A stretch of 64,000 bases of DNA, taken from the NCBI GenBank assembly GCA_038087875.1, contig CM075988.1:1922001-1986000 (forward strand). Direction: 5' to 3'. The stretch comes from Malacoraja senta. Taxonomy: Eukaryota. This document shows, piece by piece, positions 4,452 to 40,299 of this stretch (position 1 is its first letter; each line of letters starts with the position of its first letter). The notes below the pieces were generated by a model. That model did no database searches and was not told the origin of the DNA. It saw only the letters and a program-made list of their open reading frames with translations. Both the position numbers and the translations under genes were made by a program.

Positions 4452-5598
4452 GACAATAGACAATAGACAATAGGTGCAGGAGTAGGCCATTTGGCCCTTC
4501 GAACCAGCACCACCATTCAATGTGATCATGGCTGATCATCCCCAATCAGTACCCCGTTCCTGCCTTCTCCCATATCCCCTGACTCCGCTATTTTTAAGAG
4601 CCCTATCTAGCTCTCTCTTGAAAGCATCCAGAGAACCTGCCTCCACCGCCCTCTGAGGCAGAGAATTCCACAGACTCATCACTCTCTGTGAGAAAAAGTG
4701 TTTCCTTGTCTCCGTTCTAAATGGCTTACTCCTTATTCTTAAACTGTGGCCCCTGGTTCTGGACTCCCCCAACATCGGGAACATGTTTCCTGCCTCTAGC
4801 ATGTCCAAGCCCTTAACAATCTTATATGTTTCAATTAGATTCCCTCTCATCCTTCTAAACTCCAGAGTGTACAAGCTCCATTCTCTCACATATGACAGTC
4901 CCGCCATCCCGGGAATTAACCTTGTAAACCTACGCTGCACTCCCTCAATAGCAAGAATGTCCTTCCTCAAATTAGGAGACCAAAACTGCACACAATACTC
5001 CAGGTGTGTTCTCACGAGGGTTCTGTACAACTGCAGAAGGACCTCTTTGCTCCTATATTCGATTCCTCTTGTTATAAAGGCCAACATGCCATTCGCTTTC
5101 TTCACTGCCTGCTGTACCTGCATGCTTACTTTCATAGACTGATGTACAAGGACCCCCAGATCCCGTTGTACTTCCCCTTTTCCCAACTTGACACCATTTA
5201 GATAGTAATCTGCCTTCCTGTTTTTCCTACCAAAGTGGATAACCTCACATTTATCCGCATTAAACTTCATCTGCCATGCATCTGCCCACTCCCCCAACCT
5301 GTCCAAGTCACCCTGTATTCTCATAGCATCCTCCTCACAGTTCACACTGCCACCCAGCTTTGTGTCATCTGCAAATTTGCTAATGTTACTTTGAATCCCT
5401 TCATCCAAATATATTATAAATAGCTGCGGTCCCAACACGGAGCCTTGCGGTACCCCACTAGTCACTGCCTGCCATTCTGAAAGGGACCCGTTAATTCCTA
5501 CTCTTGGTTTCCTGTCTGCCGACCACTTCTCTATCCATGTCAGCACTCTACCCCCAATACCATGTGCCCTAATTTTGCCCACGAATCTCCTATGTGGG
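4452..5598 (-). mobile_element. CR1/HER1 LINE, 5'-truncated (RT C-terminal half, 3' UTR, tail)
   Basis: ORF 4536-5786 contains SGVPQGSVLGPQLF and SKFADDTKL. The tail is (TCTATTG)n at 4452-4472. The ORF N-terminus beyond ~5598 is unrelated read-through. Confidence 0.92.
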
Positions 5599-6456
5599 AG
5601 TGGTTGGAGTAAGTACCTGAGTTTACAGGTGAAAAGGAGACAAAGGGTGTTAGAAAAGGAGAGCGTTTCCCCCCTCCTCCAATCAGTATAAAGAAGGGTT
5701 CTGATCTGAACCATTCCTTTCACAGATGCTGCCTGACTTACTGAATTTCTCACAAATTTTTCCTTGACCCCCTCCAACGGTTTCATATTTTTCCTCTAAG
5801 GAGGTGACCAGAATTGGGACAGTGTGTAATAACCTCCCTGACTTTACACTGTGGGCCTTTAATAATAAACCACAGAATTAACCGCTTTCCAAACCTGGCT
5901 TGCCTCTCCCAAAGGGAAATATCACCATCCTACATGAGGTGAGATTCTGTACATCCTTCGACCACTGCAACACAAGGCCACGTCCTCTGCCTGCAGCGGC
6001 CATCCCGTGGATGAACGGCCGGAGGAGAGGCTCAGGAGGGGTGGACGGAGAGGGGTGGGGTGTGTCTGGGCATGCTGGAGGGGGCATCACGGGGTGAGTG
6101 TCCATGGCAAGTGAGCAGGGTCATGGCGCTCGGCACAGGGGGAGGCCGAGTGCGGCCGCTGTCATGGGGATGTTAGCGGTACTGATGGAGACAGAGCCTG
6201 GTCGTTGGTTATCTCCTCCAGTACCTGCCATGCCCACACCACATGCCCATGCACGAGAGGCTGCCCCTTACATGCTGCCATAGGGTGGCACATACAAACA
6301 TAGAAAATATGTGCAGGAGTAGGCCATTCGGCACTTCAAGCCAGCACCACCATTCAATATGATCATGGCTGATCATCCAAAATCAGTACCCCGTTCCGGC
6401 ATTTTCCCCATGTCCCTTGATTCCCTTAGCCCTAAGAGCTAAATCTAGCTAAATCT

Positions 6457-17138: not shown

Positions 17139-18756
17139 CAGTGGCTTGCAAAAGTATTCATACCCCTTGAACTTTTCCACATTTTGTCACATTGCAACCA
17201 CAAACGTAAATGTATTTTATTGGGATTTTTTTGTGATAGACCAACACAAAGTGGCGCATAATTGTGAAGTGGAAGGAAAATGATACATGGTTTTCAAATT
17301 TTTTTACAAAAAAAACCCTGAAAAATGTCGCGTGCAAAAGTATTCAGCCCCCTTTACTCTGATACCCCTAAATATAATCCAGTGCAACCAATTGCCTTCA
17401 GAAGTCACCTAATTAGTAAATAAAGTCCCCTTGTGTGTAATCTAATCTCAGTATAAATACAGCTGTTCTGTGAAGGCCTCAGAGGTTTGTTAGAGAACAT
17501 TAGTGAACAAACAGCATCATGAAGCCCAAGGAACACACCAGACAGGTCAGGGATAAAGTTGTGGAGAAGTTTAAAGCAGGGTTAGGTTATAAACAAATAT
17601 CCCAAGCTTTGAACATCTCACGGAGCACTGTTCAATCCATCATCCAAAAATGGAAAGAGTATGGCACAACTGCAAACCTACCAAGACATGGGCGTCCAAC
17701 TAAACAGACAGGCCAGGCAAGGAGAGCATTGTTCAGAGAAGCAGCCAAGAGGCCCATGGTAACTCTGGAGGAGCTGCAGAGATCCACAGCTCAGGTGGGA
17801 GAATCTGTCCACAGGACAACTATTAGTCGTGCACTCCACAAATCGGGCCTTTATGGAAGAGTGGCAAGAAGAAAGCCATTGTTGAAAAAAAGCCATAAGA
17901 AGTCCCGTTTGCAGTTTGCCACAAGCCATGTGGGGGACACAGCAAACATGTGGAGGAAGGTGCTCTGGTCAGATGAGATCAAAATTGAAGTTTTTGGCCT
18001 AAATGCAAAACGCTATGTGTGGCGGAAACCTAACACTGCACATCACCCTGAACACACCATCCCCACTGTGAAACATGGTGGTGGCAGCATCATGCTGTGG
18101 GGATGCTTTTCTTCAGCAGGGACAGGGAAGCTGGTCAGAGTTGATGGGAAGATGGATGGAGCCAAATACAGGGCAATCTTGGAAGAAAACCTGTTAGAGT
18201 CTGCAAAAGACTTGAGACTGGGGCGGAGGTTCACCTTCCAGCAGGACAACGACCCTAAACATACAGCCAGAGCTACAATGGAATGGTTTAGATCAAAGCA
18301 TATTCATGTGTTAGAATGGCCCAGTCAAAGTCCAGACCTAAATCCAATTGAGAATCTCTGGCAAGACTTGAAAATTGCTGTTCACAGACGCTCTCCATCC
18401 AATCTGACTGAGCTTGAGCTATTTTGCAAAGAAAAATGGGCAAAAATTTCAGTCTCTAGATGTGCAAAGCTGGTAGAGACATACCCCCAAAAGACTTGCA
18501 GCTGTAATTGCAGCGAAAGGTGGTTCTACAAAGTATTGACTCAGGGGGGCTGAATACTTTTGCACGTGACACTTTTCAGTTTTTTATTTGTAAAAAAATT
18601 TGAAAACCATGTATCATTTTCCTTCCACTTCACAATTATGCACCACTTTGTGTTGGTCTATCACATAAAATCCCAATAAAATACATTTACGTTTGAGGTT
18701 GTAACGTGACAAAATGTGGAAATGTTCAAGGGTATGAATACTTTTGCAAGCCACTG
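17139..18756 (+). mobile_element. Tc1/mariner DNA transposon, IR/DR type, Passport-like
   Basis: TA|CAGTGGCTTGCAAAAGTATTCATACCC ... GGGTATGAATACTTTTGCAAGCCACTG|TA. TIRs are about 210 bp with an inner repeat of TGCAAAAGTATTCA. TA TSD at 17137-38 and 18757-58. Confidence 0.97.
17519..18553 (+). CDS. Tc1 DD34E transposase with a +1 frameshift in the last ~20 codons
   Basis: Paired-like HTH, GRP motif, WSDE, FQQDND and SPDLNPIE (34 residues between D and E). An extra C in tacccccaaaaga diverts the expected end KRLAAVIAAKGGSTKY*, which is readable in the other frame. Confidence 0.93.
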   Translation: MKPKEHTRQVRDKVVEKFKAGLGYKQISQALNISRSTVQSIIQKWKEYGTTANLPRHGRPTKQTGQARRALFREAAKRPMVTLEELQRSTAQVGESVHRTTISRALHKSGLYGRVARRKPLLKKSHKKSRLQFATSHVGDTANMWRKVLWSDEIKIEVFGLNAKRYVWRKPNTAHHPEHTIPTVKHGGGSIMLWGCFSSAGTGKLVRVDGKMDGAKYRAILEENLLESAKDLRLGRRFTFQQDNDPKHTARATMEWFRSKHIHVLEWPSQSPDLNPIENLWQDLKIAVHRRSPSNLTELELFCKEKWAKISVSRCAKLVETYPQKTCSCNCSERWFYKVLTQGG

Positions 18757-18769
18757 TATCATCAAAACT

Positions 18770-21700
18770 GTTTCAATAAAATCATGCCAGGAATATATTA
18801 TTAAACAGATTCAAATATTTTTTGAGGTAAATGACAACCCTGACACACCTACTTCTCTTATGTGGGAAACGTTTAAAGCGTATGTTCGAGGTACATTAAT
18901 TTCTGCTCAAGCATTTTATAATAAAGAGAACAGGATTAAGCAACAAACATTGGAAAGCGAAATCAAGCAACTAGATATAGAAAATGCGAGAATGCCATCT
19001 ACTTTAAAACATAATAAAATTGTTGTATTGAAATATAAATTAAATAAAATGTATTCAGAACAAGTAATAAAACTTTATCAAAAAACCAAACAATTACATT
19101 TTGAATTTGGAGACAAACCACAAAAACTATTAGCACGTCAGTTACGAAAAATGGAAGGGGGAAAAATAATTCATAAAATTAGAACAGAGACAGGAGAATT
19201 ATTTAAAATGCCCAAGGACATAAATGATAGATTTCTCCAATACTATTATAACCTTTATTCAACTAAAACAGTAGCACAATCAGAAGGAATAGCAGATTTT
19301 TTTACTAAAATGTAATTTAAAAGGTTTAGATTCAAACGATAGAGAATTATTAGAAAGGGAGATTTCGATAAAGGATATTGAAGAGTCTATTGGTTCTTTA
19401 AAAAATGGTAAAGCAGTAGGACCAGATGGTTTAGGCTCCGAATTTTATTAAAAAAATTATGATTTGCTTTGCCCACGTTTACAAAGACTGTATGAATATA
19501 TCTATACTCAACAGAAACTTCCAGACACTTTAAATGAATCTATAATAACACTTATTCCTAAAGCTGATAAAGATCCGGAAGACCCGGGATCATACAGAGC
19601 AATTGCACTTTTAAATACAGATCAGAAAATATTAACTAAAATACTAGCGCATAGATTAAGTACAGTGATGAATAAATTAATACACCCTGACCAAACAGGC
19701 TTTATTCAGAAACGGTATTCATATTATAATCTAAGAAGATTATTTAATATTATATATTCCAAGAGAATTATTAACGAAGATCTAGCAATAATCTTACTTG
19801 ACGCTGAAAAAGCATTTGATCAGGTGGAATGGTCTTATTTATTTTCGGTGATGGAAAATATGCAGCTAGGGGAGAAATTCTGTACATGGATAAAACTGTT
19901 ATATACAAATCCCACGGCTAGAATACTTACAAACCAAAGGTTGTCATCTAAATTTAGCCTATCTAGAGGTTGTAGACAAGGATGCCCGTTATCTCCATTA
20001 TTATTTGCGCTTGCTATTGAGCCACTGGCAGAAAGAGTTAGGGGGCATCCGGAAATACATGGGTATAACACAAAGGACACAGTGAATAAAATTTCTCTAT
20101 ACGCAGATGATGTATTAATTTACATTACAAAACCAGAAATTAGTATTCCAAACTTATTAAAGCTAATAACCCAATTTGGTTCACTTTCAGGATACAGAAT
20201 AAATTGGAATAAAAGTGAAATTATGCCAATAAGGGAACATAACAAACAGATAATACAACAATTTCCATTTAAAATAGTAAATGAAAAATTTAAATATCTA
20301 GGTATTTATATAACTAAGAGATATACATCATTATTTAAAGCAAATTTCCCCCCATTACTGCACAAACTACATAAGAATATTCAATACTGGAAAACACTTC
20401 CTATCTCAATGGTTGGCAAAATTAATGCTATAAAAATGATTTTTTTACCGCAAATATTATACCTTTTTCAGACAATTCCGATATATCTGACAAAAAACGT
20501 TTTTAAAAAACTGGACTCTATTGTTAATGATTTTATCTGGGATTATAAGAATCATAGGATAAACAAAAGACACTTGTGTAAATCAAAAATAAATGGAGGC
20601 TTGGTTTTACCCAACTTTTTGTTTTATTTCTGGGCTGTTAATATTAAAAATATGAATTTCTGGTTGGAAGAAATAGATCATCAACCAAAAATGGAAAAGG
20701 AAGATTGTTTACCTTTTGATATCGGTTTGATATTATTTGCTACGTCTAAATTAAACAAAAAAAATTATAGGGAAAACCCTATAATATTTAGTGCTATACG
20801 AATTTGGAAACAATTAAAAAAGACATTAAAATTAGATAATTTATCACTTTTTCTTCCAATTGTGAATAACCCTTTGTTTAAGCCTTCATGGTTGGACGGG
20901 GGTTTTACACAATGGAAGAATTATGGAATTAAAAATATGGGACAACTTTATAAGGAAGGCACCTTTCTGACATTTCAGGAGTTGCAACAGACTTATGGAC
21001 TTCGAGGAAATGATTATTTCAGATATCTTCAACTTAGAGATTATGTAAAATCGAACTCTCAAAATTTTCGATTTAGAAATTCAGAAATTCTTGATGAATG
21101 TTGGAACAAACATCCTAATACAGAAAAATTAATATCTTATATATATAATATCTTATTAGACAGTGACATTCCTTCGACGGAATTACACAGACAAACATGG
21201 GAAAAAGAATTAAATCAAGTAATAACGAAAGATACTTGGGAAGAAAGTTTGCAACACATACATCAGTGCTCACTAAACGCCAGACATTCTCTAATACAAT
21301 TTAAAGTAATACATAGGTTACATTATTCAAAAACAAAACTACATACAATTTTTCAACATATCTCACCTATATGTGATAAATGTCAACATTTAGAAGCTAC
21401 ATTATCTCATATGTTTGCAAACTGTATAAAAATTAAAAAATTCTGGGTAAATATTTTCAGTATAATATCTAAAGTAACCGGCGCACAATTGGACCCAGAT
21501 CCAAAATTAATAATACTCGGAATATTAGAATTAAATCAAACATTTAGAACAACACAAAGAAACTTTATTGATTATAGTTTAATAACAGGAAAAAAATTAA
21601 TTCTAAAATTTTGGAAAGGCCCTACGGCCCCCACAATCAAAATGTGGATTATAGAAATGACGGAGACCTTAAACGTGGAAAGAATCAGATTTTCCCTGTT

Positions 21701-21788
21701 GGACAAACAGGAATTATTCGTAGGAACATGGTCTCCTTTTATTGATTACTTAAAGGGTCTGAATAGTTCAGCACAGGAACCTGACTAG
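18770..21788 (+). pseudogene. L1 ORF2 (RT plus C-terminal cysteine domain), frameshift near 19310 and stop near 19449
   Basis: LDAEKAFD, RGCRQGCPLSPLLF, LYADD, KYLGI, CDKC...HMFANC. The endonuclease domain is absent. Confidence 0.93.
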
Positions 21789-22150: not shown

Positions 22151-24197
22151 TAAAGCATCCAGTTACCAAAACTAGAAGAGGAGGCACCACGGATCTTGTC
22201 TGACCAAATCCTCTGTGGAGATAACAAAGGTTATTTGCTGAGAGGTCATGGACATGAAACCTTTCTCACCACAGATGCTTCCTAACTGTTGCAGCTTCTC
22301 TGCTTTTATTTCAGAACTTCAACGTTCTCAGTATTTTAATTTGTTAACAGAAAAGACAATGGAACAATGACAATGGAACACAAAGATCTACACTGGTGTT
22401 GCTCTACATTGATGGTGTCAAAGTAGAGATGGTCAAAAGTATCACGTTCCTGGGAATGAATATCATCAGCAATTTGTTCTGCTTGGACAAAGTTGGGCCG
22501 AAGGGCTTGTTTCTACACTGTATCACTCTATAACTTGAATTTATCCATCGATAAATGATTGCACAGCAAACTCATGACTGGGGTTAGACAAGTAGAGTCA
22601 GGGAATCAACAGCATCAAACATGATGGGTCTTATGAATGGTCTCTCTTCCCCAAAGTTAACTGGTTCCTCCGTCCACAGATGCTGCTTGACTGGCTGAGT
22701 TTTTGATTCAGAATCGACACCCTGTGGGATACAAACTGGAAATATGGGTAAGCAGGTTACAGGTGGTTTCTGTGTCTGCATTAAGGACAGGCAGTGAAGT
22801 TATGCTGTTCGCCATAGATTCATACAGTAAGAAACGCCCTTCCTTCCAAAAACATCCATGCCAACCAAGATGTCCCATCTAAGCTAGTCCCATTTGCCCG
22901 TGTAAGTACCCTATCCCTCTAAACTTTCCTATCCGTGTTCCTGTCCAAATGTCTTTTAATTGTTCTTATAGTATCTGTCTCAACTGCCTCCTCTGGCAGC
23001 TCATTCCATATACCCTTCACCCTCTGATTGCAAAAGTTGCCCCTCAGTTTCCTATTAAATCTTGGCCCCCTCACTGTAATCCTATGTCCCCTACCCTGGG
23101 TAAATGACTGTGTGCATTCACCCTGTCGATTCCCCTCATGATTTTTTACACTGGAACTCAATAATTGGAAAAACATTTGCACAATTTGGTTGCAGCACCA
23201 AATGTAGGGGTACAGGTGATACGTCAAGAATGTTTAATTGCCATATGTACTGAGAGAAGAACAATGTAGATTGATTGATTCTTCTCTCCAGAGATCCTGC
23301 CTGAGTTACTCCAGCTTTTTGTGTCTATCTTTGATTGAATGATTGAAAGATACCGCAGGGGAACAATCCTTTTGGCCTACTGAGTCCACACCGACATCAC
23401 TCATTCATGCAAATTCAATGTTACGTCAGTAGGGGCAATTTACAGAAGCCAATTAACATACCAGCACGCTCATCTTCGGGATGTGGGAGGAATCCGGAGC
23501 ATCCGGAGGAAACCCACGCAGTCGTTCCACACAGACAGCACCCGAGGTCAGGATCGAACCTGGGCCTCTGGCACTGTGACACGGCAGTTCTACTGCTTCT
23601 TAAATGATTCTTAAAGAATCCCGACTCTTAAAGGAGAAATGTGAAGAGTTCAGGAGACTGCAGTTGCAAATGTTTTATTTTCAGTAAAGACAAGCGTGTG
23701 GTGGTGCCATTTGGAGAGAGAATAAGGAGATAGCATTATCTTAAATAATTCAGTTCATGGGGATAAAGTGATCTAAAAGTAATGATCCGTTAGCAAGGGC
23801 AAAAGATTGCAAACAGAGCTTTGATTCGATTTGGAAATAATTGCCAAACAGGACGAGTTTACTAAAGTTACATACATTCTGGTAAGAGCAACTGAGTACT
23901 CCACCTACATCTTGCAAAATAGTTATAGACGTATTGACGAAACCACAAACTCATTTACCAGATGATCCCAAAATCTGGTAGCAAGACTGTCAGAAAGGAT
24001 TAAATATGTGGAGAGTGAAGGGTGATGGGTCCCGACACAAAACATCCCCTATCCATGTTCTCCAGGGATGCTGCCTGATCCTCTGAGTTACCCCAGCAAC
24101 TGTGTTCTGCACTAAGTTTCTCACGCCTAAAGCTCCGTGTATCTTCAATGTTCATACTGTTGGGTTGTGGGCTGTAGATACAATGAATAACCTTGGT

Positions 24198-24406
24198 AAA
24201 CACAAAAGGCTGGAGTAACTCAGCGGGACAGGCAGAATCTCTGGAGAGAAAGAATGGGTGACGTTTTGGCTCGAGACTGAAAAAGGGTCCCGACCCAAAA
24301 CGTCACCCATTCCTTCTCTCCAGAGATGCTGCCTGTCCCGCTGAGTTACTCCAGCTTTTTGTGTCTATCTTCGGTGTAAACCAGCATCTGCAGTTCCTTC
24401 CTACAC
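24198..24406. repeat. Palindromic Penelope-like terminal-repeat insertion
   Basis: An arm of about 75 bp (aaacacaaaaggctggagtaactcagcgggacaggcag...) is followed by its reverse complement. Similar structures lie at ~14930-15118, ~16720-16912, ~30700-30899 and ~59394-59552. Confidence 0.8.
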
Positions 24407-27316
24407 AATGGCCTATTGGATCAGGTTAATGGGCAGGTGTGTTGGATGAATACATTACTTCAAATGGAACAGGAACTGGAGCACCTGCACTCCCCTCAGG
24501 CAGCTAGGGCCAGCGTGGACTGGTGTGTGCGTTACCACTTGTCAAAACAAGTGGCATTTGCTTTTCACCAGCGACATCCTCAGGGATGAGCTGCTGACTT
24601 CTCCCCTGCATCTTCTGCTCTACGAACTTTCACACAAGGTAGGGTTCTTCAGCAACTACCCTCTTTGTTAACTGGGGAGACCACAGTTCAGCATCAGAGT
24701 GGGGTTGATGAAATGGTCGGGTGAGAAAATGAATGAGGAAAGTAAATAGAGATGATTGAAGAAGCTGGGGTGAAATATGTGTCAATTCACCAACTCGACT
24801 GTGGAACAGTTTCTGTAACTGTCTTTAAGCTTGTACGGTTGCCAATTGGGTGTACATGAGTTGGGCCAAGGGGTCTGTTCTGTGCTGTATGACTCTCTGC
24901 TTCGAGTCACGGAGTCATATATAGTGCAGAACAAGCCATTCGGCCCATCTTATCCATGTCTACCAAGATGCTCCATATATGCTAGTCCCATTTGTCCTCG
25001 TTAGATGCAGATGCTTTGGGAAGTTTAGAGGGATGTGGGCCAAACAGGCAAATAGGACTAGTTTAGATAGGGAACCTTTGTCAGCATGGACGAGTTGGGC
25101 CGAAGGGCCTGTTCCGTGCAGTATGACTCTTTGACAGAAATATTTCCAATTGGTGTACCTGGCCAAATGGTGTTTAAATGTAGTTATTGCGCCAGTCTCA
25201 ACTACCTCCTCTGGCAGTTAATTCCATATACTCACCAACCCCTGTGCAAAAATGTTACCTATCAGATTTCTATTAAATATTTCCCATCTCACCTTAAATG
25301 TATGTCCTCTAGTTCCTGATTCCCCAACCCTGGGATAAAGACTATGCATTCACCATATCTATTTCCAGAATCATTTTATACACCTCTATATGATCACTCC
25401 TCAGCCTCGTACGAGCCAAGCAATAAAATCCTAGCCTATCCAGCCTATAGGGTCCGAAAACTGAGGACCTTGTGTCCTCGATAGTTTTTTCTGCACTCTT
25501 TCCAGCTTAATGTCACACAAAAGTTTCAAAACTGAACACAGATTACAAGTCTGAAGAAGGGTCCCGACATGTTCTCCAGGGATACTGCCTTGCTGCTGAG
25601 CACTTTGTATCTTTTTTTGTAAACCAGCATCTGCAGTTCCTTGTGACAACATAACATTCCACGTGCAACCTCTCCAGTGTCTTGGATAACTGCAACATAA
25701 CATCCAAACCTCTATACTCAATAACCTGACTGATGAAGGCCAATGTACCAAAACCCTTCATGACCACTCTATCTACAGTGCCTGTGACACCACTTTCAGA
25801 GAATATGCCATGTACTGCTAGATCCTTCTGCCGTACAACACTACCCAGTTCCCTACTGTCTACTGTGAAGGTCCTGCCCTGGTCCTGTACTAAAATGCAA
25901 CTCCTCGTACTTGTCTGAATTAAACTCCATTAGCCATTCCTCAGCCTACTCGCTCAACTGATCAAGATCCTGCGGTAATTCATGATAACCATCTTCGCTG
26001 TCTACGACACCACCTATTATAGTGTCATCTGTAAATTTATTAATTACGCCTTGTACAATCTCATCCAGATTGTTGATATGGATAGACACAAAATACTGGA
26101 GCAACTGAATGGGATGGGCAGCATCTCTGGAGAGAAGGAATTGGTGACGTTTTGGGTCGAGACCCTTCTTCAGACTGGTGTCAGACATTTTGTGTCTATC
26201 TTTGGTTTAAACCAGCATCTGCAGTTCCTTCCTACACGTTGTTGATATGGATGCCAAACGGCAGTGGGCCCAGCACTGAGCCTGGAGGCACACCACTAGT
26301 CTCAGGCATCCAGTCCGAAACTTTATTCTGATCATTAACCCATTAACTCGTTACGTAAACAGTACACAAAGCAATTCCGCTTTGCAAAGCATCAGTGTGG
26401 TGTGGATAGCCAACCGATTGTTTTGGAGACGTTTTGTGATGGTTCTGGAAGTTTCCGCCCATTGGCAGCTGCCTGGGTGGATCTCACTGTCAGAGACACT
26501 GAGCTGGTTGGGTTATGATGTTTAAGGGCTTTGGGCTGCCTTTCTCTAAATGCATGGCTGAGAATGCACACCCTCAAACCCCCCCCCCCGATGCGGCTCC
26601 TAAATTGACCAAGAATGTTAAGTGGAGTCTGACCTACTTGCGAGCGGAGTCAGTGGGTGCGGGAGGCAGAGGGAACTGGAGACCGTTTGCTCGCCACCCT
26701 GTAATTAGTTGTAAAGAGCATTGTCACAATTGGCTCCATTGTTCTCTCTGCCCTGTCCTGAGACACAGATGGGAATTTCCAACAGCTGTTAACAGATCGC
26801 TTTACATAAAAAATAAACTTGCTTTAACATCACAATCCGATTTTAGACAGCGTTACTTGGTTTCATTTGGAAGCTGAGTGCAAGTCCCTAATGTGTTTTC
26901 CTAGAATATTTTGAAAATGCGAACTGTGCGTTTGGAATGGTGCCTGCTTTAACCAGGATTATTGAATCTGTTTGCTGAATAGCTTAAAGGGAAGATGATT
27001 AGTTGTTTAATTTCCCACTGATATATCGCTCATTACCTATAATTGAAAACTGTCACGTTTGAAATTGCACCTCAGGCAAGGGGAACATAAAGAAGCATTT
27101 GTCTGTCTTCCTATGATTTGTTTTCAGATCTCAGCATTCGCGGGTAGATGCACAGTCAATGTTTGCAGAAGGCCTTGGGTGAGTACTCTGCTATAAAGAG
27201 CTCACAGCCTGATGCCTGCAACACACAACAGGACATGTTAACCCCTGTCCCCACAACACAATCCCACACCTTCAAGCATGGTACTTTCCAATGGTTGATC
27301 TTTCCACACCAGGGGT

Positions 27317-27923
27317 TGTTGTGTTCAATAAATCACTGGATTCAGACAACAGTTTTGATTCTCTCAGTAAATTATTACATTACTAATTAAGGCACATACA
27401 CTCACGTTTCCCTGAATATCCCCGAATGCACTTGCAAAGCCTGAGTACTCAGCAGAGCATGCCGCAGGGTATTTCTACACACACTCACGTAAACCTGTAC
27501 GCAATCGCAAACTCATCACAGCACACCACAGAATGGTCCATTCAAGATCACCTGGCACTGTTGGTGACACGGTCCAAGGCTGAAGTTCTCTCCCTGAAAG
27601 GGCGCCCAACACCATCCTTTATGGCATTTCTTATCAGAGCAGACCGCGCCACTGCCCCCTCCCCGAGCCAATTATAAGCCCCCCTTGTCTGCAACGTTTC
27701 TGCACTACTGGTGGCAGGGGGCGCGGTTGTCTACCCAAATATTGCTGTTGTGTTGTGTTTGCCAACGTTACACTTTCCCATAGGATGGTCTTGAAGACTG
27801 CGTTCCCAGGCAATGATCACAGGTAACGCATCTGGAAACTTGTTTTCGTAGACCGTGGAATGTAGGTCTGATAACTCCATTTCACATTTTAGCTGAAATT
27901 GCCCGTTTAACCCTTACACTACA
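27317..27923 (-). repeat. ERV 3' LTR
   Basis: On the minus strand it reads TGTAG...CAACA. It is preceded by PPT AAGGGGTGGAG (27924-27934) and is homologous to 29974-30510. Confidence 0.9.
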
Positions 27924-28094
27924 CTCCACCCCTTGGAGTCATCAGTCTACATTAGCACCCATCTAACAACATGTTACTGAGAATAATAATCAAAAGTACA
28001 GTATAATAATTCTATCTATGAATGTGAGGTGATTATGTGTCAAACCCATGCCATAAGGGCGTGAGTTATGTGATCTACCAGTAATTCATTGTAA

Positions 28095-28235
28095 TCCGGT
28101 ATGTAAGTGTAGTCTTCTCTCCCAATGATGACACAAGTCCTCATTTTCTAGGCTAGTTGGAAGTCCAGGGCCATGCGATTCTGCAAGACGATAGTTTGTA
28201 TTGCCACCATTTCGGCACTCAGTGCTTGGATAGCT
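28095..28235 (-). pseudogene. env: env TM remnant with an immunosuppressive domain
   Basis: AIQALSAEMVAIQTIVLQNRMALDFQLA*KMRTCVIIGREDYTYIPD matches the gamma-type LQNRxALDxLxAxxGGxC...CC motif in decayed form. Confidence 0.85.
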
Positions 28236-28699
28236 TGCCTGCCTCTACTAGCCCCAGAGTGGTCCTGCTGTCTGCGATGTGGGACCTGTGCACAAACTCA
28301 GTTTAAATAGGTATGTGTACAGGAGCGAGAGATAGGTGTTTGATTCAGTGCAGACAAGCGGTGCAGCAGCCAGCACTGCCAGAAATATCAGCCCATGCCT
28401 TCATCCGGTATACATGATGCGCCTCACGGTTCTTCTGTAAAGAGAGGGCAGAGCAGGGTCACTCTCGCCTGGTCAAGTGCTGTAAAGGTACTGTAGGTTT
28501 ATCCTCCCCAGTCACCATCAGCCACCGCGTATTGCCCTGCGCTGTGGCAATAACTTCCCCCTTGCCAGGGGCCCCCATCGGGGACCGAAACCCACACCTT
28601 CCGGGCGTCTTCCTGATGTTCTTTCGTCAGTGTGGCTTCATCTGGCTCGACTGTAACAGACAGATGTCAGCTCTTGGGTGTGCCCCCTTCCATTGGTCA

Positions 28700-29465
28700 T
28701 TGGTTCAAGTTGTTTACTGCTTGCTGTAACACAAGGGCCCACCCCTTTAGCGTGTGGGAGGAGGTTAGTGTGTGTATCTGCTCTTTTAGTAGACTTTTCA
28801 TCCGCTCCACCAGCCCTGCTGCTTGCGGGTAATACGGGATGTGGCCAGTCCACTGCACCCCATTGTTGCACTCTGTTACCAGTAAAGTGGGACCCGTTGT
28901 CTAACTGAATCTCCCATGGTGGACCATACACAGCCATTAGCTGGTGCAGTCCATCTATCTCCCACCCCTGGGACTGCCACTGTGTCATCCATACAGCCAT
29001 ACCGTCTGCAACTGCCCAGGAGATGGTGTACAGCTGGACTGGAGTATTGTCGTTGGACAAAGGGAGGGCCATGACCTCCTCGTGCAGACAGCGAACACCG
29101 CCGGGGCCTCTGTCAACCCTATCCGAGATGTACCATTTCCATTTTACAATAGAGGAGCGCTGTGCGTGTTCCTGATTATGGGAGATGTTGGCAGACTTAA
29201 CTCAGGTCATAATAGGTAAGTGAGGGCACATAACCACTATCCCACCCGCCGTAAGGTGCTCGGTAGCAAGGAGTGCCAAGTAACATGCAAACCACTGTCG
29301 CTCAAAGGCCGGGATCAGGCAATCCAGAAACCGAGACGCACCTGCCGTCCATCATGTTGTTGCCACAGACTCCACTCCTCGTTACGAGCAGTAGCCGACA
29401 CCTGCAATTCAAACGAGACATTCGCCCGCTGTAAAGCAAGCGGGAGCGCCTGTTCCACCATGTAG
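28700..29465 (-). pseudogene. pol: pol remnants (RT connection, RNase H and integrase fused by deletions)
   Basis: FELQVSA...WSLWQ...RLGFW, then VQLYTISWAVADGMAVWMTQWQSQGWEI, then GLHQLMAVYGPPWEIQLDNGSHFTG, and YPQAAGLVERMKSLLKEQI in another frame. Confidence 0.85.
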
Positions 29466-29523
29466 TGGGGCACAGCGACCCCATCGGGGAGGGTAACGGG
29501 CATAAGGCCTAGCATCACCTGGT

Positions 29524-29925
29524 CTAGCGAGGGCCGCCGAGAATACCCGCCGGGGAGCCTGGCCACACCCCTAGTCCAGGGGAACCGGCACGATCCATCC
29601 CCGGGGGGCTCTCATCTTGTGCCAGGTTTTTTACTTCTTGTTCCTTTTGTTTAAGATTCTCATGTTGAGATCTAACTATTGACAGCAACAGCCAGAATTC
29701 TCCTTTGTCGCTCCCCTTTTCCTTGGGGAACTCACTCTCTTTTAACTGTGTCAATATATTATGTCCGATTGTAACATTAGGATTGTTGTTTAGTGCATCG
29801 GACCTGTCGATGGGCGTCTCGGACTTAGCAATTAATTTGGCCAAACTCGCAAACACGTCCCTATTATCCACCCACCCTAGGATCCAATAAGTTTCAGGCT
29901 CCACTGCTTTCTTTGACTTGCATGT
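29524..29925 (-). pseudogene. gag: gag N-terminal remnant (putative)
   Basis: First open frame after the PBS. It contains WLLLSIV followed by a coiled-coil-like stretch. Assigned mainly by position. Confidence 0.55.
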
Positions 29926-29953
29926 TATTTATTACTGAGTGTATGTTATCTGA

Positions 29954-29971
29954 ATCCTGCCGACTACGCCA
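29954..29971 (-). promoter_or_regulatory. Primer binding site, tRNA-Ser
   Basis: TGGCGTAGTCGGCAGGAT lies 2 nt after the LTR end and is complementary to the vertebrate tRNA-Ser 3' end ATCCTGCCGACTACGCCA. Confidence 0.92.
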
Positions 29972-29973
29972 AC

Positions 29974-30510
29974 TGTTGCGTTTGATAAATCCCTGGTTTC
30001 AGACAACAGTTTTGATTCAGTAATTTATTGCACTACTAAATAAGGCACATACACTCACGTATCCCCGAATATCCCCGAACGCACTCGCAAACCCCGAGTA
30101 CAGAGCAGAGCACGCCGTAGAGTGTTTCTACACACACTCACGTAAACCTGTACGCATTCGCAAACTCATCACAGCACGCCACAGAATGTTTCATTCAAGA
30201 TCACCTGGCACCATTCGCGACATGGTCCAAGGCTGAAGTTCTCTCCCCGAAAGGGCACCCAGCACCATCCTTTATGGCATTTCTTATCAGTGCAGACTAC
30301 CCCTCCCCGAGCCAATCATAAGCCCCCCTTATCTGCAAATTTTCTGCGCTACTAGCAACAGGAGGCGCAGGTGGTCTACCCAACTATTGCTGTTGTGTTG
30401 TGTTTGTCAACGTTATGCTTTCCCATAGAATGGCCTTGAAGACTGCTCCAAGGCAATGATCACAGGTAACGCATCCAGAAACTTGTTTTCGTGGACTGCG
30501 GAATGTAGGG
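29974..30510 (-). repeat. ERV 5' LTR (outer boundary uncertain)
   Basis: Homologous to the 3' LTR up to ggaatgtagg (~30509). AATAAA lies on the minus strand near 30023-30028. Confidence 0.85.
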
Positions 30511-32089
30511 CTACTAACTTAGCTGATAACTAAGTACGGGCCCAAGATAACCTTGTAAACACCACTGTAGACCCCTGATACTGTGTGAACGTTTCACTGG
30601 CAAACTGAGAGGGTAACCATGGCACAAATTCATGGATGGGTTCAGTGGATATCACTGCTTCACCAAGTCTGGCTTCACACCGGGCCTGTGGCCGGGCTCT
30701 GTTGTGTAGGAAGGAACTGCAGATGCTGGTATAAACCAAAGATAGACACAAAATGCTGGAGTAACTCAGCGGGTCAGGCAGCATCTCTGGAGAGAAGGAA
30801 TTGGAGATGAAGAAAGGTCTTGACCTGAATTGTCACCCATTCCTTCTCTCCAGAGATGCTGCCTGTCCCGCTGAGGTACTCCAGCATTTTGTGTCTATCG
30901 CTTGTCGGGCTACTGGTCACTGGCCAGAGGTAGCTGCTCAGGACGGGGCTTAGACTCATCCAGAGTCACAGCCTGAGACCACAGCAAAGCCCTGACCAGA
31001 CGGAGAAGCTGGGGTGAGGCCGTACTAATGGGTCAGAGCCTGGGCCGCAGTGGGATGAAGCAGGCTGAGAGGCAGGTCCAAGCCACACTGTGACCTCAGC
31101 ACTGGGCCACAGCTAGTGTATAGATGATTAACGAGATGAACAACCGTCCAAAACGTACACCAGCCGGTTTTGCAACGCAAAGCTTTGTTGTAATTAGTGA
31201 CAGGAACGCGGTACAATTAACTCTTAATTTAGCTCAACAATGCTCCCCGGCTTGGTCTCCCTTGTGCCACCATGAGTGAATTCTTCATGCCAGCTTTAAA
31301 TACAGAAGGCACCTGTGCTGTCTGTGCAGCTGCCAGGAAAATATGTCTTTCACCAGCTTCACTGCAACCCTACACCAACGCTCAGCTCACCTTCCCTTAA
31401 GTACAAGAATACATTACAGTGAGTCTAACAATACACCCAGTGGCTTGCACTGTGAAGGCCTTTGTCTCGCTGCAACTTCTGCACTGAATCACAGTGAAAC
31501 AACTAAACCTTCTAACACCAAGCAAGTTGTGAGACACATAGCCATTGTACCTCAGGCAGCAGATTCTGGAGGGATCTTGGCTCAGGCAGAGTTGATGATC
31601 TGCTCATGATGCTCCCTATAGATAGAGATCATACATGACATTGGCAGGAGGTAGCGCTCAAACATGCTTTCACATTGCCCACGTAAGTACTATATCCCTC
31701 TAAACCTTACTATCCATGTACCTGTCCAAATGTATTTTAAATGTTGTTATAGTACCTGCCTCAACTACCTCCTCTGGCAGCTTGTTCCATGTACCCACCA
31801 CCCTCTGTGTGAAAAAGCTGCCCCTCAGGTTCCCAATAAACCTTGCCCATCTCACCTTAAACCAATGTTATCTTGTTTTTGAAAATGCAGAGAGTTGTGG
31901 ATGTAGCCCAGACCATCACACAAACGAACCTCCCTTCCATTCACTTTATCTACACTTCACGTTGCCAGCGACGTCAAGGACGAGTCTCACCCCCAATCAC
32001 TCCGTCTACTCTCCTCTCCCATCAGGCAAGAGGTACAGAAGTGTGAAAACGCACACCTCCAGATTCAATAACAATTTTTTCCTAGCTGT

Positions 32090-32610
32090 CCTGTCTATGC
32101 CGCATCTGCGCCCAGGATGAGGTGTTCCATACCGGGATCTCGGAGATGTCCTCATTCTTTAAGGAAAGGGGGTTCCCTTCTTCCATCATATTCAAGGCCC
32201 TCACTGGGATCTCCTCGATATCCCACAATTCCGCTCTTGCTCACCCTCCCTCCATTCATAACAATAACAGAATCCTTCACCTTCCACCCCATCAGCCGTC
32301 GCATACAGCACACAATTCTCCGACATTTTCGCCATCTCCAACAGGATCCCACCACCAGCCATATCTTCCCATATCCACTCCTTTCCGCTTTCTGCAGAGA
32401 CCGTCCCCTCTGCAACTCTCTGGTCAACCTGTCCCTTCCCACCCAAACCAACCTCTCCCCAGGTACTTTCCCCTGCAACCGCAGAAGATGCTATCTCCCT
32501 CTCCCCTGACATCAGTCTGAAGAAGGATCTCAACCCGAAACGTCACCCATTCCTTCTCTCCAGAGATGCTGCCTGTCCCGCTGTTACTCCCATATTTTGT
32601 ATCTATCTTC
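32090..32610 (+). mobile_element. Penelope-like fragment nested in a Rex1 3' fragment (31880-32780)
   Basis: RICAQDEVFHTGISEMSSFFKERGFP (PLE RT thumb), then the terminal repeat. The Rex1 sequence resumes at agctgtcatcaggcaactgaacc. Confidence 0.75.
32513..32548 (+). ncRNA. Minimal hammerhead ribozyme motif of the Penelope pseudo-LTR
   Basis: CTGAAGA-AGGAT-CTCA-ACCC-GAAAC-GTC. Other copies in the window give stem II as GGGT-CTCG-ACCC. Confidence 0.6.
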
Positions 32611-34200: not shown

Positions 34201-35489
34201 CATAATCTGTTGTCATTCACTCACAGAGGACCATTGACTAAAGTTTGTGGGGGAGGTGGTGAGTACCAGCAGCCCGTGAGATGAAGGCTCAAGGTAAGTT
34301 ACATGCCAGCAATGAGATGGAACATTAGAGTAAGAGTAGGAGCAGAGGCACAGGCAAATGCAGATGCTGCAATGCTGAACAAAACACGAACAAAACACGA
34401 TGTGCTGGAGTAATCCAGTGGGTCAAGCAGCATCTGTGGAGGGAATGGACAGGCAATGCTTTGGTCGGGAACCTTCATCAGGCTGTGAGAGGTCATAGCC
34501 TCAGAATAAATGGACGTCCCTTTGGGAAGGAGGTGAAGAAGAATTTCTTTAGTCAGAGGGTGGTGAATCTCAGGAATTCATTGCCGCAGAAGGCTGTGGA
34601 GGCTAAGTCAATGGATATTTTTAAGGCAGCGATAGATAGATACTTGATTTGTACGGGCATCAGGGGTTATGGGGAGAAGGCAGGAGAATGGAGTTGAGAG
34701 GGAGAGATAGATCACTTGATGGGCCGAATGGTCTAATTCTGCTCCTATCACATGAACTTATGAAGCAGGCGTGGGTCAATGGGGCTCGGACATCCACTCC
34801 ACCATTCCATGAGACATGGCTGACCTTTCCCCTCAGTGCCACTCTCCTGCACCAAACCCGTATGATTGTTGTGTGAAGTTCTGGTCGCCCGATCACAGGA
34901 AGGAGGTGGGGGTTTGGAGAAGGTGCAGAGGAGGTTCACCAGAATGATGCCTGGATTAAAGGGTATTAGCTACAGGCGGGACTAACTTGGATTGTTTTCT
35001 CTAGAGTACCAGAGGTTGAGGGGTGGTGACCTGATAGATATATGTAGAATTATTGGAGGAATGGATGGGGTAGACAGTCAGGATCCTTTTCCTAGGGTCT
35101 AAATGTCAAAGACTAGAGGGTTTTGAGGTGAGAGGGACAAAGTTAAAAGGAGATTGGCAAGGAGATTCCAAGTCCGGACTTAGTTTTGTTTAGTTTATTG
35201 TCACGTGTACAGTGAAAAGCTTCTCAAAATTCTCAAAGATGGTGAGCTACAGCCCAAACCACAGTGTGCTGTAAATAATTTCCCTCAGTTCCCTTTGAGA
35301 CACATGGGAGAGGTGTCCACAGAGAGCATACTGGCACAGTGGTAGAGTTGCTGCCTTACAGCTCCATAGACCCAGGCTGAATCCTCACTACAGGTGCTGT
35401 CTGTACAGAGTTTGTACGTCCTCCCCTTGACCTGTGTGGGTTTTCTCCGGGATCTCAGTTTCCTCTCACACTCCAAAGACGTATAGGTT

Positions 35490-37688
35490 CTTTCTATCTT
35501 CTCGACTCTTGTGAGGGTGATATCATACATGGTTAGTGGCCACATAAGGCGAGGCAGTAACCCAAACTGCAGGCACCAGATTTTCAGCTTTCCAGGCAGC
35601 ATGGATCGGTCGATGTTCGCCAGACCTATGATGACTTCTTGCCTAAACTCGTTAGCCTGATCAGTGTCCTTCAGTTTAGAATAATACCATCTTCCCAGAC
35701 TTTTGATTCGCTTCTCTGACACAGTTGGCATAGGTTCTTCATCAATGAAGAACCTTTGATCTGTCAGTTTGCCTTTGATTATGGAAATGTTTCTTGATTT
35801 GGATGGCTTGAATTTCATTCTGACCCCAGTGATGTTTTCTTGAAGCTTTCCTAAAAGGCGCCTGGTGCAAGGTGCTGTTGTTGTTATAATTGTCATGTCA
35901 TCCATGTAGGCCCTGATGGGTGGTAGACGAACTCCAGACTTCAGCCGCTCGCCACCCACCACCCACTTGGAGGCCCTTATGATGACTTCCATAGCCATTG
36001 TAAAAATCAATGGGGAGATGGTACACCCCACCATAATGCCAATCTCCATGCAGTGCCATGTGGTCGTGAAGTCAGGCGTGGTGAAACAGAGCTGCAGATC
36101 TTGAAAATAAGCCTTAACAAGGTTTGCGATAGTCTCTGGTATACTGAAGAAGTCAAAGGATGCCCAGAGGAAACTGTGAGGGACAGTTCCGAACGCATTG
36201 GCAAGGTCAAGAAAAATGACATGCAGATCTCTCTTCTCTTTTCTTGCAGTCTGGATTTGCTGCCAAATCATGCTGGTATGTTCGAGACATCCAGAGAACC
36301 CTGGGATGCCTGCTTTTTGGACTGTTGTATCCACAAGGTTGTTTCTCTCTAAATAGCTGGTCATCCTCTGGGCTATGATGCTGAAGAAGATCTTACCCTC
36401 TATATTGAGGAGACTGATAGGGCGGAGTTGGCTGATATCTGTGGATTCCTTCTCTTTCGGAATCAGGATTCCTCCTGCCCTGCGCCATGCTTTGGGTATG
36501 ACTCTCTTCTCCCAAGCCACTCTCATTAGCCTCCACAGGAAGCAAAGGACATCAGGAGCACCCTTGTAGAGTCGATACGGAACCCCATTTGGCCCTGGGG
36601 CTGAAGTTGCTCTTGCCCGCTTTACTGTCTGTTCCACCTCCCTCCACTTTGGAGGACTAATGTCCATCTTATGCTCTGGTTGTTCAATTGGTGGGATGTC
36701 CGATGGAATAGCTGTCTTCTGGTGTCTCTGGTCATCCGCATGCATTCTTTCCAGATGCTCGTCCAGCTCCTGCCTTGTTGTTTTCAGGTTTCCTCCCTTT
36801 TCTTTGATGAAAAGTGATTTTACGAATATATAGGGGTCCTTGAAGAAGCGTGATCTCGTTCGTTCTTTCTTTTTCCGTGATTTCCGCAGGTACTCTGGTC
36901 GTCTCAGGGTTGCTAAACGGTTTTTGATGTTTCCCTGGAGAATGTTGATGCCCTCCTTCTCACTATCAGAAGCCTTCCTCCACTGCTTCTTGAGCTGCCT
37001 TCCGGATTAGGCATTCCATCTCCTTTTGCCGTCTGGACTTGCTTTCCACAACTGGTGCCTTTTCCTTTTTCTCCCTTATTCCATATCGTTCTGCTCCATA
37101 GCTATAGATGATGTCCCCCATCTTATCAAGCTTTCTTTCAACTGTACCCCTTACACCCTGTAAGATATGGGTCAGGTCTTAATATATGTTCTCCCATTCT
37201 TTCTTCTCTGAGGCTCCAGGCCATTTGACCCGAGATTTTCTTCCGCTGATCTTTTTCTCCATTTTCTGGTTTTCTTGGCTGGATGGGCTCCATATCTTCC
37301 TCTGCCTGCGTAACTGTGCTTGAGTTTCCTTCATCAGGGGGGCTGATGCCCTGCGAACTTTGGTGAGACTCCAGTTGCTGGACTTCATTCGACTTACTTG
37401 ATTGACTTCTCAGGAAGTACTTATCAATGCGATGTCCCTGTTTTCCATCTCTCAAGCACCCTTTCTTTCCTTGATGTATTTTCAAGCCCTTTGAAGATGT
37501 TATTTTCATCCAGCTGCAGGAGCAGACCTGAAGCCTCTTCTCGGATGATGATTGGGCGCATGGTTCTTGTTGAGTGCATGTATTGCTCATGGTCTTTTCC
37601 GTTCCTAGGTCTATAGCAGTGAGTCATCTTCCGCCCCCGCTCTAGCAGACTCTAGGGGTATTCTTTCTTTAATTCTTTTCGCAGCCAT
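35490..37688 (-). pseudogene. HERO-like ORF (zinc finger plus RT), frameshifted, ending in the thumb region
   Basis: SAPGPNGVPY, RPISLLNIEGKIF, QKAGIPGFSGCLEH, FLDLANAFGTVPH, GCTISP, AYMDD, IKSLGRWY. Confidence 0.9.
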
Positions 37689-39032: not shown

Positions 39033-39405
39033 CGCGTTGGGAGAGCCAGCGCAGGGAATGCCTGGGGAAGGTCCGGGCTTAGCGTTGGCCTATAGGAGAG
39101 CCAGCACATGGAGTGCTTTAGAAGGTCCGGCTCAGCGTTGGCCTAAGGGAGAGCCAGCGCAGGGAGTATTTGGAAAGGTCCGCTCAGCTCTTGCCTACAG
39201 GAGAGCCAGCGTGAGCAATGCCTGGATAAGGGCATTTTTATGCGTTGGTCTACAGGAGAGCCAGCGCCAACTATGTCTGGAGAAAGACAGTTTAAGCGTT
39301 GGCCTACAGGTGAGCCAGCACCAGCAGCACCTGAAAGAGGGCTGCCTATGCATGGGCCTACAGGAGAGCCCGCACGGCGAGCACCTGGGAAAGGGTTTAC
39401 TATGA
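39033..39405 (+). repeat. About 7 diverged ~54-bp tandem repeats in the DIRS gag-like region
   Basis: Core cgttggcctacaggagagccagc, encoding an 18-aa unit such as RWPTGEPAPAAPERGLPM. Confidence 0.8.
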
Positions 39406-40299
39406 GCACCTGGGAAAGGGTTTACTACTACCTGAAGCAGGATGCCAATTCTTCCCCTCCATGAGGAGGATTATTTCACGCAAAGATTCAGAGACGAATC
39501 ATATGAGGACCAGAGCCCAATAACAGAGCCTAAAAGACCAGGTTTGGCACAATATATGAAATTTATGGTTCCAAAACTATCAGGGGAACCATTGGGAGAT
39601 AAATTAGCAATGTCAATAAATTACTCGCTCTCCCAGCAGCTCCAGGTTCTGACCATGCATGAGCTCTCAAAAAAATGAAACCCGCAGTATTGAGCACTGC
39701 AAGCAGTCTCAGCGGTGAAAAAAAAATTAAAAAATGACAGAGGGTGTTGAAATTGCTCGTCAGGCATTACGGCTTTGGCCAGAGGTTTGGATGGAGACCA
39801 CGTGTCTGTATCACAACAAGGTTGACTTAGCACTCATGTGTAATGCGCACTTTGAAATAAACTGTATTTATAAAAGTGCTATAAGACCTAACATATACCC
39901 TAAGTTTGCGGGGCTCTGTAAACCATCTAATATTTAATTGCCTAAAATCTGTTTTTGGAAAGAATCTAGCCAAAAAAGGGTAAAAGACCTAGATGAACCT
40001 GTCGGTGATTGGCAGATCAAATCGAAGGCAGTTTTCCCTACCAATGTGTGCTGACTGGGGACAGTGAAGGATCAAATCGGTCTTTCCCATATTTGCGTTA
40101 TTGGCGCACTCCTCCTGAGGTACGTGGAGGTTACAATATTCCACTAAGATCAGGGGATAACAATTGCCATAGGCAAACCCTGAGGTAGGGGAGGCTGGTT
40201 CTGTAAGAGACATATTAATGTTTTACACTTACAACATAGAAACATAGAAACATAGAAAATAGGTGCAGGAGTAGGCCATTCGGCCCTTCGAGCCTGCAC

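What the first reader, a model, noticed from the sequence alone, without database searches (positions are those of the whole stretch)
27317..30510. Class III (ERV-S-like) provirus with a serine PBS and gamma-type env in a probable elasmobranch
Seen: a perfect tRNA-Ser PBS, ERV-L/S-type RNase H (LYTxSWAVAxG) and integrase (DNGSHFTG, PQAAGLVER) motifs, and an LQNRMALD env domain. Established: class III pol with a Ser PBS and gamma-type TM is the HERV-S pattern of amniotes, whereas fish ERVs are mostly epsilon-like or foamy-like. Inference: this may extend an ERV-S-like lineage deep into jawed vertebrates or record a cross-class transmission.
Basis: partly seen in the sequence, partly recalled or inferred. 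Interest (0 to 1): 0.7.

Follow-up and report, generated by a model that had tools for sequence, protein, structure and literature searches.

The report
Gutted ERV-L-type provirus in a skate
This is a dead, 3.2-kb, heavily deleted fossil of a class III (ERV-L/ERV-S group) retrovirus in a ray-type genome, likely a skate, that was likely copied around the genome by helper viruses; it sits on a ray-specific branch rather than with the ERV-S-like elements of birds and frogs, and a member of this group was already reported from a shark, so it is a new member of a known kind.

Summary
It lacks protease, RT core and most of gag and env, and the motifs lie in broken frames. The host is a batoid, probably a skate. 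Its pol groups with skate and stingray elements (99/97) inside the ERV-L/ERV-S radiation. Union with a chicken ERV-S-like proxy, XtERV-S or a white-shark relative is rejected (AU p<=0.0002); union with MuERV-L is not. The Ser PBS and the TM type are shared with a co-resident class I family, so they do not mark ERV-S descent. Two large deletions recur at the same breakpoints in many loci: likely a non-autonomous subfamily spread in trans. Class III pol with gamma env (XtERV-S) is published, and a 2018 tree lists a whale-shark element beside HERV-L/S. What looks new is the batoid branch. The scan's notes showed no earlier finding of this.

The parts
29974..30519 (-). 5' LTR (546 nt; first ~50 nt of the full LTR not alignable, so no target-site duplication can be read)
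29952..29971 (-). primer binding site, 20 nt complementary to tRNA-Ser(AGA/CGA) 3' end plus CCA, 2 nt after the LTR's CA
29614..29919 (-). gag N-terminal remnant (ERV-L/Fv1-like Gag; residues 5-105 of the stingray polyprotein)
   Evidence: Fv1-like names of cluster members
29462..29627 (-). likely gag-end remnant between a window-specific gag deletion and the shared protease-RT deletion (inferred from sister copies)
29055..29458 (-). RT connection (tether) remnant, frameshifted
28950..29040 (-). RNase H remnant, degenerate motif, ends at the shared RNase H-integrase deletion (~28952)
28462..28958 (-). integrase core C-terminal half and C-terminal domain, frameshifted, no dUTPase between them
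28052..28249 (-). env TM remnant: immunosuppressive domain and decayed cysteine motif; SU and membrane anchor absent
27924..27934 (-). polypurine tract
27317..27923 (-). 3' LTR (607 nt, TG...CA)

Best explanation
It is a dead, internally deleted provirus of a ray-specific branch of the ERV-L/ERV-S group of class III retroviruses, in a batoid host that is likely a skate, and it was likely spread in trans by complete helper copies after losing protease, RT core and part of RNase H-integrase. Shown: anatomy, decay, tree position among the sequences on hand, shared breakpoints at different integration sites, 5-bp target-site duplications of the family, and a Ser PBS and TM type shared with a co-resident class I family. 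Inferred: the deletions arose once (perhaps by RT template switching at 3-4 nt microhomology), the deleted RNA kept LTRs, PBS and PPT and was packaged and reverse-transcribed by helper proteins in an ancient burst, and env has been exchanged between class III and class I lineages in elasmobranchs (direction unknown).
For: Pol tree, 39 rows x 807 columns, LG+G4: window + two sister copies 100/100; these with three more skate class III loci and two stingray proteins 99/97; inside a 29-row group (97/97) with MuERV-L, XtERV-S and chicken ERV-S-like; class I excluded 100/100. AU tests. Closest database protein is stingray Gag-Pol, 59% over 276 shared columns versus 45% for MuERV-L. RNase H-IN junction identical in 14 of 18 loci with both sides found, the other 4 carrying 406-552 more nt; 35 of 39 other genome matches run across it. 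Protease-RT junction shared in 10 of 12 loci with both sides and 21 of 40 other matches. Copies with both deletions have different 3' flanks (window, L062, L065, L068). 5-bp TSDs at 6 of 28 LTR loci, 5 distinct. LTR pairs 0.11-0.14 apart in 4 of 5 two-LTR copies measured, similar to inter-copy distances of 0.12-0.20. TM core 78-82% identical to class I env L055 and sawshark envs; class I family also has a Ser PBS.
Against: HERV-S, SnRV and foamy sequences are absent from the tree; ERV-S is represented by a chicken proxy identified by eye. The AU test used LG+G4 only, and the mixture-model run did not finish. Junction searches used joined queries, which favour joined copies, and many matches are segmental duplicates on unplaced contigs. 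No complete helper copy of this LTR family was found (RT survives only in broken copies). The TM tree is a polytomy, so env exchange is not shown by a supported branch; the ISD core is conserved anyway, and the lower identity to the sister class III env (52-64%) compares two decayed sequences.
Confidence: 0.75

Rival explanations
1. It is a true ERV-S member: class III pol, Ser primer, gamma TM and lack of dUTPase were inherited together from an ancestor shared with HERV-S.
For: All four structural features are met. The stingray Gag MHR matches the HERV-S row at about 11 of 20 positions by eye, similar to MuERV-L (about 10). The TM belongs to the broad gamma-type subgroup that also holds HERV-S and XtERV-S TMs (by eye).
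Against: AU rejects batoid + chicken/pheasant ERV-S-like (p 0.0002) and batoid + wider XtERV-S group (p 0.00015). Over a 28-residue ISD-to-cysteine stretch a family copy matches the class I env at 25, XtERV-S at 18 and HERV-S at about 13 positions (by eye). The Ser PBS is shared with class I elements here.
Confidence: 0.1
2. It belongs to an already catalogued chondrichthyan family such as ERV-SA.a-Ppe (class III pol with class I gamma-type env) or the whale-shark Rh_ty_ERV3 lineage.
For: Chen et al. report ERV-SA.a-Ppe with class III Pol and gamma-type Env; Ppe may be a sawfish, a batoid (my guess). Rh_ty_ERV3 has an ERV-L-type Gag with motifs like the stingray protein (by eye).
Against: Chen et al. 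call their class III group SnRV-related. The white-shark relative on hand groups with killifish and toadfish (100/100), and union with the batoid clade is rejected; in Xu's figure Rh_ty_ERV3 is listed beside a killifish element. Four of the five little-skate representatives whose RT could be read look unlike this family, and the fifth is listed in clade Mu.
Confidence: 0.2
3. The shared deletions reflect DNA-level segmental duplication of one deleted provirus, not retrotransposition in trans.
For: Several copies lie in repeated blocks with identical flanks (C864, C2711, C2302, C1662 groups).
Against: Copies with both deletions lie on different long contigs (C12, C13, two places on C1, C5841) and four have different 3' flanks; their two LTRs have diverged independently.
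Confidence: 0.1
4. The element records a cross-class jump from an amniote or amphibian into a ray.
For: The wider group mixes hosts without following host phylogeny (owl with frog 100/96; shark with teleosts 100/100), so jumps do occur in it.
Against: The nearest relatives are skate and stingray elements forming a deep batoid-only clade, with at least three lineages in this genome; no tetrapod row falls inside.
Confidence: 0.1

Closest known systems
XtERV-S of Xenopus tropicalis (Yedavalli et al. 2021, PMC8278194)
   Same: Class III gag-pol, gamma-type TM, tRNA-Ser(AGA/TGA) PBS, 5-bp TSD, deleted derivative copies.
   Different: XtERV-S is intact, young and has a dUTPase; this family is dead, old and has none. 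Pol is on a different branch; TM core 18 of 28 identical by eye.
MuERV-L / ERV-L
   Same: Fv1-like Gag, connection, RNase H and IN motifs; 5-bp TSD; sister grouping with the batoid clade not rejected (AU p 0.27).
   Different: ERV-L is env-less and has a dUTPase (PMC8278194); its Leu primer is recalled. This family has a TM remnant, a Ser PBS and no dUTPase.
HERV-S / ERV-S
   Same: Class III pol, Ser primer, env present, no dUTPase (features from PMC8278194 and PMC5210030 passages).
   Different: Not sister to the ERV-S-like proxy on hand; TM clearly different by eye; HERV-S itself not tested in a tree.
Rh_ty_ERV3 (whale shark) and No_fu_ERV1 (killifish) in clade Huo (Xu et al. 2018, PMC6001957)
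   Same: Non-foamy, non-SnRV-labelled class III elements of fishes listed beside HERV-L/MuERV-L/HERV-S; ERV-L-type Gag.
   Different: The shark + teleost branch in my tree is separate from the batoid branch; env and PBS of Rh_ty_ERV3 were not seen.
ERV-SA.a-Ppe (Chen et al., bioRxiv 10.1101/2021.11.23.469661)
   Same: Class III Pol with a class I gamma-type Env in an anamniote survey.
   Different: Described under SnRV-related class III; host and sequence not seen (supplements closed).
Stingray (Hemitrygon akajei) uncharacterised Gag-Pol cluster, P0002/P0173
   Same: Best protein match over gag, connection, RNase H and IN; same short IN tail without dUTPase.
   Different: Annotated with long open frames in 13 cluster members; not described as a retrovirus in its database names.

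Membership tests
Class III ERV (ERV-L/ERV-S radiation) | Pol groups with MuERV-L/XtERV-S, away from gamma and epsilon | tested here: met
   (97/97 group; class I excluded 100/100); foamy RTs rank first among solved structures, 75.8 vs 65 bits for MLV
Class III ERV (ERV-L/ERV-S radiation) | 5-bp target-site duplication | tested here: met
   6 of 28 LTR loci, 5 distinct; not readable at the window copy
Class III ERV (ERV-L/ERV-S radiation) | ERV-L/Fv1-like Gag without zinc knuckle | tested here: inconclusive
   window keeps only residues 5-105; the stingray relative is named Fv1-like and has no zf-CCHC hit
ERV-S (HERV-S) | tRNA-Ser primer binding site | tested here: met
   also present on a class I family, so not diagnostic
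ERV-S (HERV-S) | gamma-type TM env | tested here: met
   sister copy PF00429 E 1e-4, 21.6 bits, just under the 22.5 cut-off; window stub E 7e-15 to class I env
ERV-S (HERV-S) | no dUTPase after integrase | tested here: met
ERV-S (HERV-S) | Pol monophyletic with amniote ERV-S-like elements | tested here: not met
   AU p 0.0002 against chicken/pheasant proxy, LG+G4; HERV-S itself unavailable
ERV-L proper | dUTPase present and env absent | tested here: not met
ERV-L proper | Pol sister to MuERV-L | tested here: inconclusive
   open fork; AU p 0.27
SnRV-like or foamy-like class III | Pol groups with snakehead retrovirus or foamy viruses | not testable with these tools
   no named SnRV or foamy sequence was returned; nesting among MuERV-L and XtERV-S argues against
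Epsilon/gamma (class I) | Pol groups with class I | tested here: not met
Non-autonomous deleted ERV subfamily | same internal deletions at independent integration sites, cis signals kept | tested here: met

The most novel reading that the evidence does not exclude
Skates and stingrays carry their own deep branch of ERV-L-related retroviruses, possibly the enveloped sister of mammalian ERV-L, that has persisted in batoids since before the skate-stingray split, died long ago in this skate while keeping open frames in a stingray, and traded envelope and serine primer with co-resident class I retroviruses.
Probability: 0.3. Interest if true: 0.5.

Novelty: new member of a known kind. Interest (0 to 1): 0.3.

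Why it matters
It adds a batoid branch to the ERV-L/ERV-S radiation and shows that serine primer plus gamma-type TM is not a safe label for ERV-S descent, since class I and class III families in one ray genome share both. If orthologous insertions span skates and rays, the family would give a minimum age for enveloped ERV-L relatives and a calibration for slow elasmobranch clocks. The locus itself is a non-functional fossil.

Tried and rejected
Pfam on the three whole frames gave only weak integrase hits; the first env Pfam try was in a wrong frame and was repeated. Viral-contig scan with a sister copy's RT found nothing. No tRNA gene in the window. No named HERV-S, SnRV or foamy protein came from three homologue searches and one representative search (30 proteins looked up for names). 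treekit AU test did not finish; the C20 mixture AU run timed out. No RNA holder listed among sequencing runs, which says nothing on expression. Two runs of one study cover the locus as contigs, and one contig in each crosses the right boundary; they may be the source and are not independent support. No target-site duplication could be read at the window copy or at L065. RAG2 locus was fetched but not used. TM trees did not resolve the direction of env exchange. Absolute dating was rejected as unreliable for want of a lineage rate. Literature: searches listed no paper describing a batoid ERV-L-like branch; the library lacks most subscription journals, Repbase and Dfam.

Full report
Observation. 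The element lies on the minus strand from 30519 to 27317. The two LTRs align over 545 columns with 484 identical; K2P distance is 0.123-0.125, or 0.095 outside CpG sites. The 3' LTR is 607 nt, starts TG after a polypurine tract and ends CA; the 5' LTR lacks about 50 nt at its start, so no target-site duplication can be read here. Two bases after the 5' LTR comes a 20-nt site complementary to CCA plus the 3' end of host tRNA-Ser genes; 3 of 4 genome hits of an extended pattern are tRNA-Ser(AGA or CGA) genes by ARAGORN. The internal part is only about 2 kb: against a 1577-residue stingray Gag-Pol it covers residues 5-105, 963-1104, about 1200-1235 and 1402-1577. Protease and RT core are missing, frames are shifted, and env is a stub of about 60 codons.

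Host. Two globin exons from the same genome score highest, among single-domain chains, against PDB 1cg5 (85 and 75 bits); for the first exon 1gcv (70) and 3mkb (58) follow, ahead of other chains at 57 or less, and for the second the next single-domain chain scores 41. That these entries are stingray and shark haemoglobins is recalled. A co-resident env is 95% identical to a thorny-skate protein, and locus L057 matches a little-skate ERV in Xu et al.'s data by eye. The host is a batoid, most likely a skate.

Family in the genome. The LTR search scored 40 of 435 candidates and returned 44 matches at 75-100%. Five-base TSDs are readable at 6 of 28 LTR loci examined, 5 distinct; XtERV-S and ERV-L also make 5-bp TSDs (PMC8278194). 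RT survives only in a few broken copies: 5 of 150 listed matches exceed 45% identity to a sister copy's RT. Two large deletions recur. The RNase H-integrase junction near 28952 is identical in 14 of 18 loci where both sides were found among 40 examined; the other 4 have 406-552 extra bases, and 35 of 39 other genome matches cross it. The junction near 29461, where the start of protease abuts the RT connection (about 370 codons lost; L063, L065), is shared by 10 of 12 loci with both sides and 21 of 40 other matches, with 18 more starting at or just after that point. These queries favour joined copies and many hits are segmental duplicates, but four copies with both deletions have different 3' flanks. 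The undeleted copies show 3-4 nt of microhomology at the first junction, weak support for template switching. A further gag deletion of about 630-790 nt relative to 7 other loci is not shared with them. This is the anatomy of a non-autonomous subfamily that kept LTRs, PBS and PPT and was likely mobilised in trans; that step is inference.

Age. Four other two-LTR copies give 0.061 (187 columns only), 0.114, 0.133 and 0.141; window LTRs differ from ten other LTRs by 0.12-0.20, which fits one old burst. With Han's assumed shark rate of 2.2e-10 per site per year (PMC4422223) the window copy dates to about 280 million years, with the mammalian 2.2e-9 to about 28. The epaulette-shark pedigree rate (7e-10 per generation, PMC10587355) favours the slow end. 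I do not commit beyond tens to a few hundred million years.

Phylogeny. Homologue searches returned relatives from stingray, white shark, killifish, medaka, toadfish, bichir, lungfish, frogs, caecilians, newt, turtles, birds and mouse. P0047 is taken as MuERV-L (Mus cluster, dUTPase), P0012 as XtERV-S and P0016 as the 'chicken ERV' row closest to chimp ERV-S, both by eye against Fig. S1 of PMC8278194. Broken copies entered the alignment as their alignable pieces (281 of 838 columns for the window). The RT-IN tree (39 of 47 rows; 8 short, redundant or distant rows dropped) puts the window with sister copies L045 and L046 (100/100), these with L050, L051, L052 and two stingray proteins (99/97), in an open fork with MuERV-L and an amphibian-teleost-shark-lungfish-bird group (85/96). 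XtERV-S and the chicken proxy lie outside that fork but inside a 97/97 group; class I is excluded at 100/100. The white-shark protein joins killifish and toadfish (100/100). AU tests on 26 rows reject batoids + chicken/pheasant (p 0.0002), batoids + a wider XtERV-S group (0.00015) and batoids + white shark (5e-54), but not batoids + MuERV-L (0.27). The model was LG+G4, which can over-reject, and HERV-S, SnRV and foamy viruses were missing.

Envelope and primer. The best genome matches to the family's TM outside the family belong to a class I family (L055, L056; zinc-knuckle Gag, pol in the class I clade). Over a 52-residue core, better-kept copies are 78-82% identical to L055 and sawshark envs, and 52-64% to the env of the sister class III family, both sides decayed in the latter case. 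That sister family carries SU and TM homologous to the class I env directly behind a class III pol (L031, L032, L050). The class I family also has a Ser-type PBS. The TM tree places the window family (99/97) in an unresolved group of 23 rows (genome copies plus shark, ray, teleost and unnamed envs). So pol class and env type are uncoupled here, as Chen et al. report for anamniotes generally; exchange is likely, its direction unknown. There is no dUTPase: the integrase core runs into the C-terminal domain in both the window and the stingray protein.

What is known. Read: Yedavalli 2021 (passages, section 11, supplements 1, 7, 9 and hits in 6); Chen 2021 preprint (passages, sections 7 and 8; supplements closed, so ERV-SA.a-Ppe could not be compared and may bear on novelty); Xu 2018 (passages, S2 Fig label text without topology, hits in the sequence file, where long runs are cut); Han 2015 (first part of the whole text); Blanco-Melo 2024, Naville and Volff 2016, Ruboyianes and Worobey 2016, Song 2023, the 2023 env-recombination review PMC10536682 and PMC10587355 (passages). 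Class III pol with gamma env and a Ser PBS is published for frogs. Chondrichthyan ERV RT hits are mostly clade III, 2843 versus 2018. Naville and Volff list HERVS/L-like elements for tetrapods only, but Xu's figure lists whale-shark Rh_ty_ERV3 and killifish No_fu_ERV1 directly above HERVL, MuERV-L and HERVS, and the former has an ERV-L-type Gag. Their five little-skate representatives do not look like this family. My searches listed no description of a batoid branch.

Verdict. A real but gutted class III provirus. It works like a non-autonomous derivative of an enveloped ERV-L-group retrovirus, fails the phylogenetic test for ERV-S on the proxy available, and extends a group already seen in a shark to a batoid-specific branch. 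New member of a known kind; interest 0.3.

Noticed in passing
window 17507-18553 (+): Tc1/mariner transposase open frame of 348 aa with Tc3 and Sleeping Beauty HTH and DDE_3 Pfam hits.
   Followed up: partly
window 18710-21788 (+), 35285-37006 (-), 4536-5795 (-), 59669-62534 (-): Several LINE RT/endonuclease frames of different families; two have RVT_1 hits. No obvious host exon among frames of 180 aa or more.
   Followed up: partly
L055 1097-8012 (+), L056, L080: Class I ERV family with open gag, pol and env frames in many copies, Ser-type PBS and a TM core close to the class III family's. L080's primer site continues into about 40 further tRNA-like bases.
   Followed up: partly
L031-L036, L050, L052: A second decayed class III family in this genome with a different LTR, Ser PBS (L052) and SU+TM env homologous to the class I env.
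   Followed up: partly
L057 993-9719 (+): Retroelement with four open frames (630, 1411, 444, 353 aa) whose RT falls outside both class I and ERV-L groups and matches a little-skate ERV of Xu 2018 by eye; the two frames behind pol were not identified.
   Followed up: no
L040, L041, L049 (contigs C385, C1651, C3027 and others): About 18 near-identical LTR-less fragments of the deleted family begin at the protease-RT junction on unplaced contigs, apparently within a larger duplicated block.
   Followed up: no
P0002 cluster (stingray): Thirteen annotated proteins, several named Fv1-like, from an ERV-L-type Gag family; possible co-opted Gag genes were not examined.
   Followed up: no
window 39035-39427: Tandem array of about 53-nt units.
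   Followed up: no
window 24020-24408, 26081-26237, 30702-30899, 32506-32609: Very abundant short repeat with internal inverted arms; extreme contig depth over the two copies inside the stretch laid.
   Followed up: no
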